Shown here: in pieces, positions 3,001-9,000 of the stretch
How the letters are laid out: every line of letters starts with the position of its first letter
Position numbering within the stretch: position 1 is the stretch's first letter
IMG/VR virus record: IMGVR_UViG_2917849834_000004
Length of the DNA: 48,246 nucleotides
Source: a virus
Taxonomy: Duplodnaviria; Heunggongvirae; Uroviricota; Caudoviricetes
Strand: one strand, 5' to 3'
Program-made: the position numbers

Positions 3001-6000
3001 ACCCTGCCCTTCCACTGTGGGGATAAGATGAAAGCTATCTTCTGAGCGACGAAAAATCATGCCTAAGGCATCATCGAAAATCCTCAGCGCATTAACGCCA
3101 CGAATTTTTAGTTCCCCGGTCATCAAATCACCAGATTTTTTTACATATCGCAGATCAAAATCTGAATAAATATTGCCAGGGTTTATAACACTGAAGTAGC
3201 TTTTCTCGCTATCAAGAAGGCAAATTAAGGGAATGCCTTTAATGATATCGTTCGCTACCAGCTCGGACTGGTTCCCCTTATAAAGTGGGAACGTACCAAG
3301 AACCTTTCCGCCCAGTGTTAATTGAAGCGTCGCGGCGTTGGTATTGTTCTGAACGGGGAAAACGATAATCGGGGTTCGTAGCGTCCAGTCCGAGCCTCCA
3401 TTAACAAAAAAACGTCGCGGGAAGTTCAAGCGTCAGTGCATTTGCAGTGCCGCCAGCAACACCCGCAATATAATGACCGCTCTGAAGCTGCGCTATCTGT
3501 ACGAAATAGTTTTCCGAACCACGCGTGGCAAAGTTAGCCACAACGTCATTAAGGGACCAACCTTTCGCAGTTGTTCCTTCCTGCCCACGAATGACTTTCA
3601 GCACATCACCGCTTACCGATACCAGGTGACAAATCTCAAACGCAGACTCTTTATTATCGGTAAGCGTAATTTTTGCATAGACGCGTTGCTCGTTCGATTT
3701 ATTTTCAAAATCGGCAGAAAGCAATTTTGCAAATTTAGCCCCCGTACCTGGCATCACAGGAATATCAGTCTGAATCGTCGTAATATCGCCAGCCAGTGCT
3801 GAAACAACATTGTTACCGAATCCAAGAATCATTTTTGTATCATCGTTGTTACATAGGAATAAATAAAAGGGAGTTTTACATATTTCTGGTCAATAGCATC
3901 TTTCAGAAAATAACCTATGCCATCGCCATACTCTGGTATCTGAATAGAAAAAACACTGTCCGATACAGTCACGCTCACATCAAAAGTGTGCTGCAACGGC
4001 GGGTCTATTCCGTTTTTTCCATGAATGAACCGCGCCACACGTCGCTTTAACCAGTCAATGCAGAAATGCGAACCGTCAGCCTTATAAAAATTCCACGTTA
4101 ATATTCGTTTAAAATAATCATCAGGTACATACGATGCCTGCCCCGGAACATAATTCCGCATTGCTGCATACGGGATCGTATTGTATTCAATGGTATTGTA
4201 TGCGCCTCGTGCAATAGCTTCCTCGGAAACCTGTAGTAAAGGCCTTTCAACGCCATAAATCCCGAGTGCAATCCAGTCCAGCAATTTCCCGGTTATTGAT
4301 TCCGATGTCCAGCATGGCAATGCCAGATTGTTGAGTGAATCGAGGTATTCCTGAGCAATTTCATTGTATGCTTCAAAGAACGCAACAACATTCGGATCAT
4401 CTCTGTACTGCACAAACGGATAAGCAGGAAGAATTTTCTCAGTCAGATATTGCATACTTGTTGACCTGAACCTGTGATGCCACCGTCGAAAAATAGGAAT
4501 AGGTATCGCCATAAACCAGGCTTGTGTCTTTTGCCGGAAGAACAATTTGGCCGTTAATGCCAATGCTCACACTGATTGTTGAGATCAATGTCGAATCAAC
4601 CAGCAATCTGACGGAGCTGGTAAAAATATCCTGGATTCGCAGCAGATTTATCGGGTGGCCGACCTCAATAGAATTGATGTAATCAGCAACGTTTTGCTGC
4701 ACAGCCATAGCAATACCCGCCGGATCAACATAATCATCAGACACCGTGTTCCAGGTGATTAGCACCATGACGTTTTGTGATGACGGGATAACGAATGGCA
4801 CCTGATAAACGTCCGGCGAAACGGTTATTGAAACCGTGCGTTTTTCCACTGCCGCACCGGATGGATTGGTTACATCGTGGGTCAGTTTCGAAATATCCGG
4901 TACAGATTTGTAAATCGCATAAGCCACATCATACGGATCACCACCACCAATAACCGCAACCCATTTCCCCAACGACGACTGCCGGAAAGAAATCAGGTTT
5001 TCTCGCACACCGCTTACTGATTTGAGCATCGCTTTAAAGCAATCCGGTGTTCCCTGCACACCAAACATGCCGGACTCCATGACTTCGGCGCGGTAAGATG
5101 CCCACGTTTGCGCCTCCTGACCGGGCATTCCTGCGCTAAGGTTCGTGCACTTTACAGGCTGGTCTTTTGGTACTGAGGTAATGACCTGCGTCACAGTCCC
5201 TTCCGGTACAGCCCATGATCCTGACGTTGTAGCCACACAGTAGACTGGCTCAGTCTGACCGCTTTCTGGTACCACCGTATCGCGGGAAACTGCATACTGG
5301 TAGTTACCGTCACCAACCACAAACCCTTTAGGGATGCCAAACCCCGGCAACGCCTCAAACACCACGTATACCGCCGTATTTGTACTTAATCCCTTCTGTG
5401 CTCCATAAATGTTTCCGAGTTGCATCAGTAACGGAATATTCGCGCCGTATGGGCTTACGGAGTTAATAAGATCAACACGCGCCTGGTCTATTAATGCCAG
5501 CGCCCCGACTGCCGTGCTGGCAAGGTCTGTAATAAGTCCCGCCGGAAGGTTGGCTGTATATCCAGGTACTTTTTCAGCAACTCTGGTGATAAGATTTGCG
5601 AGTAAATCATTGGGTGGCGTAGGCTGCGCACCCGCACTGGTCATAGTAATTGGTATTTCTGACATAATTAATCTCAAGAGGATTTTATGAAATTTAACTC
5701 ATTAGGGATTTTGATTAGCTCACTGCTATTTTCTGGTGTTTCTCATGCAATTGATGCCACAGAGAGAATGAATGACATTCAACAGTTCGGTAAATGGTAT
5801 TATGCTGAGTTTACCATGCCTACCACTATGGCTTATCGTATTGGTGTTGAATCCAAATTGCCGCAGGATAAATCAACTTTATTTATTGATATATCACCGT
5901 TAACTCAATGTGAGCCCGGTGATGTTACTGTCAATCATTTTATTGGATATAAACAAATGGATTTACCACCGTTCCTTCCTGTAAGCTATAAAATCAGTGG

Positions 6001-9000
6001 ACAACAAAAGCAGGACTCTATAACAACCCCATCTATCAATGAAGGTTACTTGTTCAGTCCTATTAGCTCATTAAAGATTAGTGATTTGTTAAAAGCTAAA
6101 GGGAAAGGTAGTTTTTCTTTTTGGTACACTCCGCCAGCTGAAAGCAAAGAAAAACCACAAAAAATATTCTTCCCATTAGATGGCCTCCCGGAGGCATATA
6201 AGGCTGCAATAAATTCCTGTAAAGAAAACATGTAAAATCAGGCGGTAATTATTTATGATGCACGCCTTTCTCGAAGTAGGTAAACGCTTTGCTACTTGGA
6301 TCACCGAGCGAATCAGCGAGTATGAATTCGTAGAAAATCAGGACTTTTTGATTATTTTCCAAAATCGGGAAAAAATAGATAGAAGCAGACCAGCTAAAGA
6401 CTACCACCTCACCCTGGACACCGCCAAAGAACTGGCAATGGTCGAGAGCAACGAAAAAGGCCGCCAGATCCGCCGATACTTCATCGAGTGCGAGAAGAAG
6501 CTGCGCGAAGAAACCACCAGCACACAATCCCCTCTGAATGTTGACATCATCATGCGCGTCAGAAACGGTTCTGTTACCCAGATTGAGCACCACAAATCAG
6601 GCTCAGTTATCACAATAGAATTGGCAATTCACTTACTACGCAAAAGTGGATGGATTGCCATGCCTTGCGATGAACTTCTTGACACCCCCTGGCACAACTG
6701 ATGCCCGAGAACTTGCCTCAAACCGGAACCTGCGTCCGGTAACTGGTTCCGTTAAAAAACACAACATCAACGTTATAGGTGGGGTTCTCTGCCCCATCTA
6801 CCTTTGAAATTGCCAGCGATGCAAAATACCCGGCAAACTGTTGCTGAACCATGTTCACATAGTAGTCCGGGTAAATCTGCTGCACGATGCACTGCTGCGC
6901 TGGAATACCGTAATTCGCGTAAAACGGCGACTCCCCCAACCCCAGCTTTAACGTCTGAATGAGCGTCGTCAGCCAGCCGTAGGAGAAATCACCGCTGGCG
7001 TCAGATTCTACTGCAACCCATTTTTTGTTGCCGTTCGCGTCGGTGACGCGGCCCCATGTTCTCATCGTGCCCTCACCACCATCGGATCTGGCCAACAAAA
7101 TAACCAGACGCCAGAATCAGAAAGACCAACCAAATAAGCAAAAACTTCCAGGTGGATAATTTTTCAGCCATAACTCGAATCTCCCGAATCAGTTTGCTAA
7201 AATCAAACACGACTTCTCCTTGCCTTATTCAAGGTCAGAAACAAAAAGCCCCGACTGCTGCAACAGTTCGGGGCTTTCGCTTTATGGATAGAATTTAAAG
7301 TGAAATAAACCGGTATTAACCCGGATTTGGTTGCTTCGACGTGATCGTGCTGCCGCCGCTTTGAACGCCAGTCACATCGTGGCTGTGGCCGCTGGCGCTC
7401 ACGCCGTTGATAACTGCATCTTTCTCGACCTTGAGAGGGCCAATCAGCGAAGCGGTTGTATCCTTCATTTGTTCTTTGTCCTGGACGATTGGACCGTTGA
7501 GATGAATTTTCCCGTTCATGAAGATATCTTCGGCCTCGAGGTAAACAGCTTTCGACTTTAGCCTAATTTCTTCCGGTGCCACCGTTACCGAGCTACTGCC
7601 GTCCTCTGTTTTGAGGATCGCGCCATCTGGACCGTACAAAACGATTTTTTGCGGATCTTCGTCGGACCAGTCCTTGTTTGCCAGTGGCACGAAAAACAGT
7701 GGAGTGAGCGACATCGAGTAAGAGAGCGTCGCCATACCGGTTCCCAACCCGGACACACCGCGCAGGGATACATCAGCGGCAATTGTTACTCCTCGATCGC
7801 CCGGCTGTATCGGGTAACGGATATACGGGAATGTGGCGACAGGGATTGTTATCTGCGGAAAGTTGATCCCCTCCGGCAGCATATCAAACTGAACTGTCAC
7901 TATCTGCCCGCTGACACCGACAACATGGCAGGGCAATTCACGACCTTTAAGCTCGGCTTGCTGGTTACCAGAACTGGTCATCATCTCCGACAGCGTTCGG
8001 AGAAACGGTAATTTTTGAGCGTTTGACATTACACCCTCGCCCAGTTCTCAGCATATGCCTCGAATACCGTCACCCAGGCATCGCCATCGGCTGTCAGATA
8101 CGAACCAATATGTCTGACCGATTTCACAAGAAATTTCCCGGTGAACGTGGTCGAATTTTTTGCGATAACGCCAGGAGCCGTTGTATTAGCCATCACAATC
8201 GTCGCAGCGCCTGAATATAGCCCCTCCGGCAGTTTAACCACATCACCACATCTGATATCGCCCCTCATAGGGCATTTAAAGCTAACGGTAAACGGCGCTA
8301 TCCATGTCGGCTGCCCGACCAGTTCATGGGCATGAATTGTTTTTGGCTCACCCCACTTTGCCGATGCATTATCGTAGATTCGTATTCTGTCGGAAAGAAT
8401 ACTGATGGCGATTCCGCTATACCTTTCATTACGCATCATCGCAATAGAGGCGTTTTTTACGACCATAGCCAGAGAACCAATCTCCGTATATTTACCCGTC
8501 CACGGCTCTGGCAAAACCAGGTTGTCGCTGACTGTGCAATCAATCAATTTATTGGGATATGCTTTTTGCAAAGCGCGGACTAAAACATCGCCAACCCTTT
8601 CGCCTGCTTCCCCCTGCCCCTCAATTGAAAAAGGTTTACCGTCATCGGTTTTGCGTATGCTTGGATTTATTACCAGGTTTAAAGTCTGGTTCGTGCCGAT
8701 CCAGTTGGCATAGGCCAGATAAATTTCACCATAGATTACCTCCCCCTGTTGATCCTTATTTGCCAGTGGTAACCCCTGAACAAAGCCTGCTTTCATACGG
8801 ACCAGACACCCCTGCAAGCTTACACTTTGCTTCAGCATGTCAATTGGTAATCCATAGATCGTCAGCATCGTGCCCGAACAGACTACATCCAGGCCGGTTA
8901 CCTCAAAGTCAAATTCAACATGCAACCCACATCCTGGTGTTTCACTGGTATCAAAAGGTCCAATGGGTTTTCCATTGCTATCCACTGGCGGCTTGCCTGT

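What the first reader, a model, noticed from the sequence alone, without database searches (positions are those of the whole stretch)
5687..6701. Opposite-strand insertion inside the baseplate operon: secreted protein plus N-terminally truncated antirepressor
Between the gp47-like and gp46-like baseplate genes (both minus strand) sit two plus-strand genes: a 182 aa protein with a clear signal peptide and no recognisable family, and a 148 aa protein carrying only the KilAC/ANT-type C-terminal domain of an antirepressor. This is a classic moron position. The secreted protein could be a superinfection-exclusion or host-interaction factor.
Basis: partly seen in the sequence, partly recalled or inferred. 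Interest (0 to 1): 0.45.

Follow-up and report, generated by a model that had tools for sequence, protein, structure and literature searches.

The report
Secreted-protein cargo slot in baseplate operon
Inside the tail-baseplate genes of an E. coli Rac-type temperate phage sits a swappable slot that here holds a well-conserved gene for an exported protein of unknown function (folded like the Bartonella invasion protein IalB) and the decaying remnant of an antirepressor gene, an ordinary kind of phage add-on.

Summary
Both plus-strand ORFs exist exactly as described (5687-6235, 182 aa; 6255-6701, 148 aa), between the minus-strand baseplate J gene and a 115-aa tail gene.

**The 182-aa protein**
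- It is a real gene: 36% GC, under purifying selection, with a Sec-type signal peptide and two invariant cysteines.
- No Pfam, NCBIfam or PADLOC model matches it.
- Relatives at 50-98% identity always lie divergently beside baseplate J, in four genera.
- Only 19 of about 88 E. coli prophages with this same tail carry it. The others carry unrelated cargo, mostly other secreted proteins.
- It is therefore not a virion part.

**The 148-aa ORF**
- It carries an AntA domain, not KilAC/ANT.
- An ~813-bp deletion created it, removing a second secreted-protein gene, an sRNA-Xcc1-like leader and 26 antirepressor codons.
- In this lineage it has 9 nonsynonymous against 2 synonymous private changes, plus a frameshift that may be a sequencing artefact. 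It is probably a pseudogene.

**Function**
My best guess is a prophage-expressed periplasmic protein that guards the cell envelope or blocks phage entry. This is inferred, not shown. The finding is a new member of a known kind (a moron) and of modest interest.

The parts
4439..5665 (-). Baseplate J gene (408 aa from the ATG). It forms the left flank of the slot, and its start codon lies 21 nt from the start of the 182-aa gene.
   Evidence: Pfam Baseplate_J and PHROG 6. RefSeq names the homologues 'baseplate J/gp47 family'.
5660..5668 (+). TGaCATAAT, a weak extended -10-like motif that overlaps the complement of the J start codon. It is the only candidate promoter for the cargo genes and is inferred, not shown.
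   Evidence: Read directly from the sequence. The consensus scan found no sigma-70 promoter in 5200-7400. In several relatives the hexamer reads CATAGT, which is weaker.
5676..5682 (+). Shine-Dalgarno sequence AAGAGGA of the 182-aa gene.
   Evidence: Sequence.
5687..6235 (+). Gene for the 182-aa exported protein (p182; PHROG 31333). The predicted fold is IalB-like, and C75 and C178 are invariant.
5687..5749 (+). Signal peptide coding part (21 aa, MKFNSLGILISSLLFSGVSHA, predicted cleavage before ID). There is no lipobox cysteine.
   Evidence: Sequence. The A-x-A site is conserved across the family. pLDDT is low over residues 1-26. SignalP was not run.
6240..6245 (+). AGGCGG ribosome-binding site inherited from the deleted rac61-like gene. 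It now stands in front of the antirepressor remnant.
   Evidence: DNA alignment with Rac-SA53 and P13-6.
6255..6701 (+). Antirepressor remnant (148 aa). The AntA domain is nearly complete, but the N-terminal 26 codons and the last 19 codons of the 185-aa ancestor are missing.
6255..6262 (+). Junction of the ~813-bp deletion. The ATG(A) of the rac61-like gene is joined to codon 26/27 of ant (…TATTTATGA|TGCACGCC…).
   Evidence: Rac-SA53 is 813 bp longer than the window across this stretch.
6685..6689 (+). C5 run where the window lacks one base relative to 14 other alleles. This causes the early stop at 6699-6701.
   Evidence: It may be a homopolymer error, because two structural genes in the window have the same kind of +/-1 change.
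6702..6741 (+). Former 3' end of the antirepressor frame, now out of frame. In relatives it overlaps the convergent 115-aa gene by 24-25 nt.
6718..7065 (-). 115-aa tail-operon gene (phrog_7986, function unknown). It forms the right flank of the slot.
   Evidence: No GP46 or other Pfam hit and no PDB sequence hit.

Best explanation
**What is shown**
- The interval between the 115-aa tail gene and baseplate J is an accessory-gene slot inside the late tail operon of a Rac-type temperate phage. The phage has a contractile-tail module and a lambdoid early region.
- In this window the slot holds two things.
- The first is p182, a protein-coding gene under purifying selection. Its product has a Sec signal peptide and no lipobox or further membrane segment. 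It has two invariant cysteines and a confidently predicted beta-rich fold whose only strong structural match is the IalB domain.
- p182 is positionally tied to baseplate J across four enterobacterial genera. It has diverged along with the tail module, about four times faster at the protein level. It is dispensable for the tail.
- The second is the remnant of an AntA-family antirepressor gene. One ~813-bp deletion removed a second secreted-protein gene (rac61 type), the sRNA-Xcc1-like leader upstream of ant, and the first 26 ant codons.
- In this lineage the remnant carries a near-neutral load of private amino-acid changes and an early stop.

**What is inferred**
- p182 is transcribed against the late operon from a weak promoter lying in the first codons of J, so it is probably made in the lysogen.
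- It is exported, the signal peptide is cut after Ala21, and a C75-C178 disulfide probably forms.
- It acts in the periplasm on the cell envelope or on an incoming tail tip. This would protect the lysogen, most likely by hindering entry of phages with a similar penetration apparatus.
- The antirepressor remnant is inferred to be non-functional.
For: **Anatomy and coding status:**

**Selection on p182**
- dN/dS is 0.05-0.2 in close comparisons (0.0 against TUM1881: no amino-acid differences, dS 0.037).
- Against L014, dS is 1.53 for p182 and 1.35 for J, while dN is 0.179 for p182 and 0.048 for J.

**Position of p182**
- Every close family member found in a long contig lies divergently next to J: E. 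coli, Citrobacter (L019), Salmonella (L016, L017) and Buttiauxella (L018).
- In L018 it is the only gene in the slot.

**Dispensability**
- 19 of 87-89 E. coli genomes with this J gene carry p182.
- Counts of other cargo sequences in the same genomes: a 179-aa secreted protein in 25, an HSDR_N endonuclease-like protein in 28, a 163+227-aa pair in 5, and a 356-aa secreted protein in 2.
- IS2 and IS1 insertions are tolerated in the slot.
- Five unrelated genes for signal-peptide proteins with 31-37% GC occur in the slot: four alternative J-proximal cargoes (p182 among them) plus the second-position rac61 gene.

**Fold**
- The AlphaFold2 model built on 39 sequences has pLDDT 88.7 and pTM 0.78.

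**Antirepressor remnant**
- AntA domain assignment.
- Deletion junction.
- The same deletion allele is present in phage pPE4, TUM1881 and several IMG/VR contigs.
- Ant truncations and losses distinct from this one occur in E. coli W, ETEC1703 and F9792; the Buttiauxella locus has no ant at all.
- This lineage has 9 nonsynonymous against 2 synonymous private changes at sites invariant in 14 other alleles.
- The sRNA-Xcc1-like element is present upstream of full-length ant and absent from the window.

**Precedent**
- The HK97 gp15 moron lies in the tail operon, is expressed from the prophage, and blocks DNA entry in a tail-dependent way. Cor and SieA are further examples of entry blockers (PMC3594210).
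Against: - No promoter or terminator was found by the consensus scan, so independent expression in the lysogen is assumed rather than shown.
- No PADLOC model matches p182.
- The molecular function of the IalB fold is itself unknown (PMC7327166; bioRxiv 10.64898/2026.01.22.700529), so the structural match says where the protein acts, not what it does.
- p182 is not a lipoprotein or membrane protein, unlike gp15, Cor, Llp or SieA.
- Distant family members (20-30% identity) lie in non-tail and non-phage contexts, so the fold is not specific to phage defence.
- The deletion allele of ant keeps an open frame, a ribosome-binding site and 63 of 68 AntA profile positions. It occurs in an isolated phage and shows dN/dS of 0.13-0.26 in some comparisons, so other copies may still work.
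- The frameshift near the 3' end of ant may be a sequencing error.
Confidence: 0.45

Rival explanations
1. p182 is a lysogenic-conversion factor directed at the animal host or at general bacterial fitness (adhesion, invasion or envelope remodelling, as reported for Bartonella IalB), not at other phages.
For: The only strong structural match is IalB, which is linked to erythrocyte invasion. The carriers are largely livestock ETEC and STEC isolates.
Against: The link to IalB is fold-level only (12% identity, no Pfam match). How IalB works is unknown. A soluble periplasmic protein is not surface-exposed. Strict linkage to baseplate J across genera, including the environmental genus Buttiauxella, is not what a virulence cargo would be expected to show.
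Confidence: 0.15
2. p182 works for the phage's own lytic cycle. It would be made after induction and act in the periplasm, for example by masking a receptor or envelope site so that progeny are not lost on debris (as T5 Llp does, from my own knowledge), or by tuning cell-wall breakdown.
For: It lies beside the baseplate and tail-fibre genes and has diverged together with them. Its faster protein evolution than J fits an interaction partner that changes.
Against: It is on the strand opposite to the late operon. It is absent from about 80% of E. coli prophages with a near-identical tail. It can be replaced by unrelated genes, including an endonuclease-like one.
Confidence: 0.15
3. p182 and the other secreted cargo of the slot protect the lysogen's cell wall against non-phage attack, acting as inhibitors or immunity proteins against lysozymes, colicins or T6SS effectors.
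For: One alternative cargo is named 'lysozyme inhibitor LprI family' by RefSeq. The slot is enriched in periplasmic proteins. A Buttiauxella relative carries Hcp and a Tlde1-domain gene just beyond the tail fibres.
Against: Pfam supports the LprI name only at E=0.67. The fold search of p182 returned no known lysozyme inhibitor or immunity protein among the top hits.
Confidence: 0.12
4. The 148-aa ORF is a working, shortened antirepressor co-transcribed with p182. The pair would then be a functional two-gene module.
For: It has an open frame with an inherited ribosome-binding site and start codon 19 nt after p182. The AntA domain is 63 of 68 positions intact. The same deletion allele is found in an isolated phage and in several genomes.
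Against: It has lost its own leader and upstream region, including the sRNA-Xcc1-like element. It has 9 nonsynonymous against 2 synonymous private changes, including W123L and R65S at invariant sites. It lacks the C-terminal 19 residues, if that change is real. Ant is repeatedly truncated, interrupted or absent in this slot, and one sister allele has an internal TAG.
Confidence: 0.12

Closest known systems
HK97 gp15 moron (superinfection exclusion protein in a tail operon)
   Same: It is an add-on gene embedded in a tail operon with base composition unlike its neighbours. It is absent from related phages, its product goes to the envelope, and its exclusion depends on the incoming tail (PMC3594210). 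p182 shares the position, the composition difference and the patchy presence.
   Different: gp15 is a small inner-membrane protein related to YebO and has its own promoter and terminator. p182 is a 161-aa soluble periplasmic protein with an IalB-like fold. It lies on the opposite strand, has no detectable promoter or terminator, and has no tested phenotype.
Bartonella IalB / Pfam PF06776 (invasion-associated locus B), including Sinorhizobium RgsG
   Different: Identity is 12%. No Pfam, NCBIfam or PDB sequence-level match was found, even with a 39-sequence profile. IalB proteins are chromosomal genes of Alphaproteobacteria, and their mechanism is unknown.
Soluble or lipid-anchored periplasmic exclusion factors linked to tail or receptor genes: P1 Sim, T4 Sp (spackle), T5 Llp, phi80/N15 Cor (own knowledge, except Cor, which is in PMC3594210)
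   Same: They are signal-peptide proteins made by a resident phage that act outside the cytoplasm to stop entry of related phages. Llp and Cor are encoded next to tail or receptor-binding genes.
   Different: No sequence or fold relation was detected here, p182 has no lipobox, and none of these activities was tested for p182.
AntA/AntB antirepressors (PF08346; PHROGs 14211, 5817, 377)
   Same: The 148-aa ORF matches AntA well above the curated cut-off, and it matches antirepressor PHROGs.
   Different: It lacks 26 N-terminal and 19 C-terminal residues of the 185-aa form. It also lacks the upstream leader RNA and carries private substitutions at invariant sites.

Membership tests
Moron (phage add-on transcription unit, Juhala et al. 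2000, as summarised in PMC3594210) | Present in some genomes and absent from otherwise closely related ones | tested here: met
   p182 is in 19 of 87-89 E. coli genomes that carry baseplate J at 95% or higher DNA identity. Alternative cargo occupies the same slot.
Moron (phage add-on transcription unit, Juhala et al. 2000, as summarised in PMC3594210) | Base composition different from the neighbouring genes | tested here: met
   p182 has 36% GC against about 50% in the flanks.
Moron (phage add-on transcription unit, Juhala et al. 2000, as summarised in PMC3594210) | Own promoter and terminator | tested here: inconclusive
   The consensus scan found none in 5200-7400. There is only a weak TGaCATAAT motif at 5660-5668, and the scan is crude.
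Moron (phage add-on transcription unit, Juhala et al. 2000, as summarised in PMC3594210) | Expressed from the repressed prophage | not testable with these tools
   This needs RNA-seq or reporter data from a lysogen.
IalB family (Pfam PF06776) | Match to the family profile | tested here: not met
   No Pfam hit for p182 at E<=0.01. No IalB hit for any of 39 family members at E<=1. The PDB profile search did not find 3dtd.
IalB family (Pfam PF06776) | IalB fold | tested here: met
IalB family (Pfam PF06776) | Exported (signal peptide) | tested here: met
   An N-terminal hydrophobic stretch with a conserved A-x-A site. This was judged by inspection only.
AntA/AntB antirepressor (PF08346) | AntA domain above the curated cut-off | tested here: met
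   83.2 bits against a cut-off of 27, residues 2-66 against profile positions 6-68 of 68.
AntA/AntB antirepressor (PF08346) | Full-length protein able to act on a repressor | not testable with these tools
   The ORF is truncated at both ends relative to the 185-aa form and carries 9 private nonsynonymous changes. Activity was not assayed.
Known anti-phage defence proteins (PADLOC-DB 2.0) | Match to any defence-system model | tested here: not met
   No hit for p182, the ant remnant or eight alternative cargo proteins.
Structural virion / baseplate component | Present in all related tail modules and co-oriented with the late genes | tested here: not met
   It is on the opposite strand, has a signal peptide, and is absent from about 80% of E. 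coli prophages with the same tail.

The most novel reading that the evidence does not exclude
p182 would define a family of periplasmic IalB-fold proteins that travel with one type of contractile-tail module. They would block cell entry by phages using that penetration apparatus, for example by binding the spike or the lytic-transglycosylase tape-measure tip. The J-proximal slot as a whole would then be a dedicated hot spot for secreted envelope-level anti-phage proteins. This would also give the first molecular handle on what IalB-fold proteins bind.
Probability: 0.2. Interest if true: 0.6.

Novelty: new member of a known kind. Interest (0 to 1): 0.35.

Why it matters
- If p182 blocks phage entry from the periplasm, it adds a soluble, tail-linked exclusion factor to a short list (Sim, Sp). 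It would also give the poorly understood IalB fold a testable function.
- The slot offers a compact natural experiment. Near-identical tails carry at least five interchangeable cargo sets, mostly secreted proteins, which could be screened together.
- The antirepressor part matters mainly as a caution. It is a deletion remnant and should not be annotated as a working regulator.
- Overall this is a typical prophage accessory region rather than a new kind of system.

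Tried and rejected
**Searches on p182 that found nothing**
- Pfam, NCBIfam and PADLOC scans of p182.
- A Pfam scan of 39 family members.
- A PDB sequence and profile search, which returned only chance SarX hits at E~0.3.
- The AFDB50 fold library was not available.
- The BFVD fold search gave only uncharacterised phage proteins, plus one annotated IalB at rank 13.
- Back-translated scans of species-representative genomes found no close relative. They found one distant relative, in a Crenothrix MAG, in a non-phage context.
- Contexts of distant members on short metagenome contigs (toxin-antitoxin genes and others) were uninformative.

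**Other checks that led nowhere**
- The promoter and terminator scan found nothing.
- The 'gp46-like' identity of the 115-aa gene is not supported.
- The 'LprI lysozyme inhibitor' name for the ETEC1703 cargo is not supported by Pfam (E=0.67).
- The library holds no paper that characterises Rac-SA53 (its one hit only mentions the name) and none that mentions pPE4.

**Ideas rejected**
- Chance ORFs: rejected because of purifying selection and conserved length.
- p182 as a virion or assembly protein: rejected because of the signal peptide, the opposite strand and its patchy presence.
- Recent joint insertion of both genes: rejected because p182 has diverged along with the tail module, and ant sits behind other, unrelated cargo in many relatives.

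**Downgraded**
- I first read the 3' frameshift in ant as decay. I downgraded this after finding +/-1 homopolymer changes in two structural genes of the same window.

Full report
**1. What is there**

The ORF list shows two + strand ORFs exactly at the stated coordinates: 5687..6235 (182 aa, called p182 here) and 6255..6701 (148 aa). They lie between two - strand genes.
- On the left is a 408-aa baseplate J gene (4439..5665; Pfam Baseplate_J, PHROG 6).
- On the right is a 115-aa gene (6718..7065; phrog_7986, function unknown).
- Only 21 nt separate the J start codon from the p182 start codon. A good Shine-Dalgarno sequence (AAGAGGA, 5676-5682) precedes p182.

The window as a whole is about 96% identical over long stretches to Escherichia phage Rac-SA53 and to 'Actinobacillus' phage vB_Apl-pPE4. 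It also matches prophages in about 88 complete E. coli genomes. The pPE4 annotation shows a Rac-type early region (RecET, Kil, a DicA-like repressor, YdaT) joined to a contractile-tail module.

**2. The 148-aa ORF**

The ORF is not a KilAC/ANT fragment. Its only Pfam match is AntA (PF08346), residues 2-66 against profile positions 6-68 of 68, at 83 bits. It also matches antirepressor PHROGs. Full-length homologues in the same position are 185 aa, with AntA at residues 22-89.

DNA alignment with Rac-SA53 and E. coli P13-6 shows how the ORF arose.
- Those genomes carry p182, then a 154-aa signal-peptide protein (rac61), then a ~280-bp spacer, then ant.
- The window and pPE4 have an ~813-bp deletion running from just after the rac61 start codon to ant codon 26/27 (…TATTTATGA|TGCACGCC…).
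- The remnant therefore uses the rac61 ribosome-binding site and start codon.
- The spacer that was lost contains a full-length match to Rfam RF02221 (sRNA-Xcc1; 70-78 bits against a gathering score of 53). It lies about 35 nt upstream of ant in three relatives that carry different cargo. The window has no such match.

The deletion allele is not an artefact. It recurs in pPE4, TUM1881 and several IMG/VR contigs.

The window's copy has two further defects.
- One base is missing in a C run (6685-6689). This replaces the last 19 residues by four.
- At sites where 14 other alleles agree, this lineage has 9 nonsynonymous changes (S35F, G44S, R65S, H109Q, T121I, W123L, V135A, R138C, N143D) against 2 synonymous ones. 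That ratio is close to the neutral expectation.
- By contrast, the adjacent p182 has no amino-acid difference from TUM1881 (dN 0, dS 0.037).

One caution applies to the missing base. The window also has +/-1 homopolymer changes in the tail-fibre gene (A7 against A6, near 3407-3429) and in a pPE4 gp51-like gene (T4 against T5, near 15739-15745). The single-base loss in ant may therefore be a sequencing error or part of general prophage decay. The substitution pattern does not depend on it.

Ant is repeatedly damaged or missing in this slot.
- It is N-truncated in E. coli W and C-truncated in ETEC1703.
- It is absent in F9792 and Buttiauxella.
- In one genome an IS2 element separates it from p182.

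I conclude that the 148-aa ORF is most likely a non-functional remnant in this lineage.

**3. The 182-aa protein is a real gene for an exported protein**

The word-indexed search found 13 clusters at 50-98% identity, nearly all of 182-183 aa (one is 175 aa), from E. coli, Salmonella, Citrobacter and Buttiauxella. An exhaustive profile search found 51 clusters in total.

Across 39 aligned members, the invariant residues are the start Met, W37, C75 and C178. The N-terminal hydrophobic stretch ends in a conserved A-x-A site. There is no lipobox cysteine.

Selection and composition:
- dN/dS is 0.05-0.2.
- GC content is 36%, against about 50% in the flanks.

**4. Fold**

No sequence method sees this link. 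p182 is therefore IalB-like in fold but does not pass the family's sequence test.

The literature held here describes IalB-domain proteins as periplasmic or inner-membrane-associated envelope proteins of unknown mechanism. BFVD contains similarly folded but uncharacterised phage proteins.

**5. Evolutionary behaviour**

Two facts pull in different directions, and both are robust.

(a) Positional conservation.
- Every close family member found on a long contig sits divergently next to baseplate J. This holds even where J itself is only 56-57% identical and p182 is 50-53% identical (Salmonella L016/L017, Buttiauxella L018).
- In Buttiauxella it is the only gene in the slot.
- Against L014, synonymous divergence of p182 (1.53) matches that of J (1.35). 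Its nonsynonymous divergence is about four times higher (0.179 against 0.048).
- So p182 is an old companion of this tail module and evolves faster than the structural genes.

(b) Dispensability. Within E. coli, J at 95% or higher DNA identity is present in 87-89 of 5426 genomes, but p182 is present in only 19. Genome-wide counts of the other cargo sequences, each of which I saw in the slot in at least one genome, are:
- a 179-aa secreted protein in 25 genomes;
- an HSDR_N endonuclease-like protein in 28;
- a 163-aa secreted protein plus a 227-aa protein in 5;
- a 356-aa secreted protein in 2.

I did not verify that every one of these counted copies lies in this slot.

Five unrelated genes in the slot (the J-proximal p182, 179-aa, 163-aa and 356-aa cargoes, plus the second-position rac61) encode low-GC signal-peptide proteins with paired cysteines. 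The cargo boundary lies within about 10 nt of the cargo start codon.

**6. Expression signals**

The consensus scans found no sigma-70 promoter and no intrinsic terminator between 5200 and 7400. The only candidate is an extended -10-like TGaCATAAT at 5660-5668. It overlaps the J start codon and is weaker (CATAGT) in several relatives.

Late transcription must read through the antisense strand of the cargo to reach J and the fibre genes. Expression in the lysogen is therefore inferred from orientation, composition and precedent, not shown.

**7. Most likely function**

What is shown:
- p182 is an exported, disulfide-capable protein with an IalB fold, under purifying selection.
- It is tied to one tail type and is dispensable for that tail.
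- The slot it occupies favours secreted proteins and also accepts a nuclease-like gene.

What is inferred: it acts in the periplasm of the lysogen, most plausibly to hinder entry of phages with a related penetration apparatus or otherwise to guard the envelope. The closest documented analogue in position and logic is the HK97 gp15 tail-operon moron (PMC3594210). From my own knowledge, P1 Sim and T4 Sp are soluble periplasmic examples, and T5 Llp and Cor are receptor blockers encoded near tail genes.

I give this functional reading about 0.3. I give about 0.9 to the anatomical and evolutionary account. Rivals are a host-directed fitness or virulence role, a role in the phage's own lytic cycle, and protection against non-phage attack. 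None can be excluded with these tools.

**8. Verdict**

- The moron-like position and the signal peptide stand.
- The domain call for the second ORF is wrong, and its history (a deletion remnant, probably dead) is different from what was assumed.
- p182 is not a recent insertion but a long-standing, fast-evolving and dispensable companion of this tail module.

This is a new member of a known kind of phage accessory element and is of modest interest. The testable idea that could raise it is periplasmic, tail-linked exclusion by an IalB-fold protein.

Noticed in passing
Relatives only: L002 5482-5565, L004 2782-2866, L028 6166-6252 (+ strand). Absent from the window.: A full-length Rfam sRNA-Xcc1 (RF02221) match lies about 35 nt upstream of every full-length ant gene in this slot. 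A blastn search with this element plus the ant start finds 176 phage records: Stx phages, Vibrio, Mannheimia, Moraxella and Acinetobacter phages. Where the hit is annotated, it usually lies at an antirepressor or KilA-N gene. An APSE phage paper reports the same RNA upstream of an ORF6N-domain gene. It may be a leader or regulatory RNA of antirepressor-type genes rather than a Xanthomonas virulence sRNA.
   Followed up: partly
window 3401-3832 / 2572-3429 (-), and near 15739-15745: Single-base homopolymer changes relative to all relatives disrupt two structural genes. A7 against A6 splits the ~505-aa tail-fibre gene, and T4 against T5 splits a pPE4 gp51-like tail-region gene. Either the prophage is defective or the assembly has homopolymer errors. 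This bears on the 1-nt deletion in ant.
   Followed up: partly
window 7073-7210 (-): A 45-aa ORF with a hydrophobic segment (phrog_6632) lies between the spike gene and the 115-aa gene. This stretch is 83-85% identical to a segment of many Stx-converting phages, where the same small gene lies next to Rz in the lysis region. The spacing between these two tail genes also varies among relatives.
   Followed up: partly
window 46512-46690 (-), 33843-34016 (-), 31109-31259 (-): Rfam matches above the gathering score: RalA (antitoxin RNA of the Rac RalR/RalA pair), sok (hok/sok antitoxin RNA) and two tRNA genes.
   Followed up: no
L001/L005 (PP818812.1): 'Actinobacillus phage vB_Apl-pPE4' is about 96% identical in DNA to E. 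coli prophages across most of its genome and has a Rac-type early region. The stated host looks doubtful.
   Followed up: no
L018 820-2182; L016 9999-11380; L019 6366-7356: There are other accessory insertions around the same tail module in relatives. Buttiauxella has T6SS Hcp, a Tlde1-domain gene and a small gene beyond the tail fibres. Salmonella has hok/gef plus two genes between the hub gene and the 88-aa gene. Citrobacter has a YafO-toxin gene plus one adjacent gene in the slot next to ant.
   Followed up: no
L031 3854-5082; RM9088 (H41/H71): IS2 and IS1 elements are inserted inside the cargo slot in two E. coli genomes. This is consistent with the slot being non-essential.
   Followed up: no
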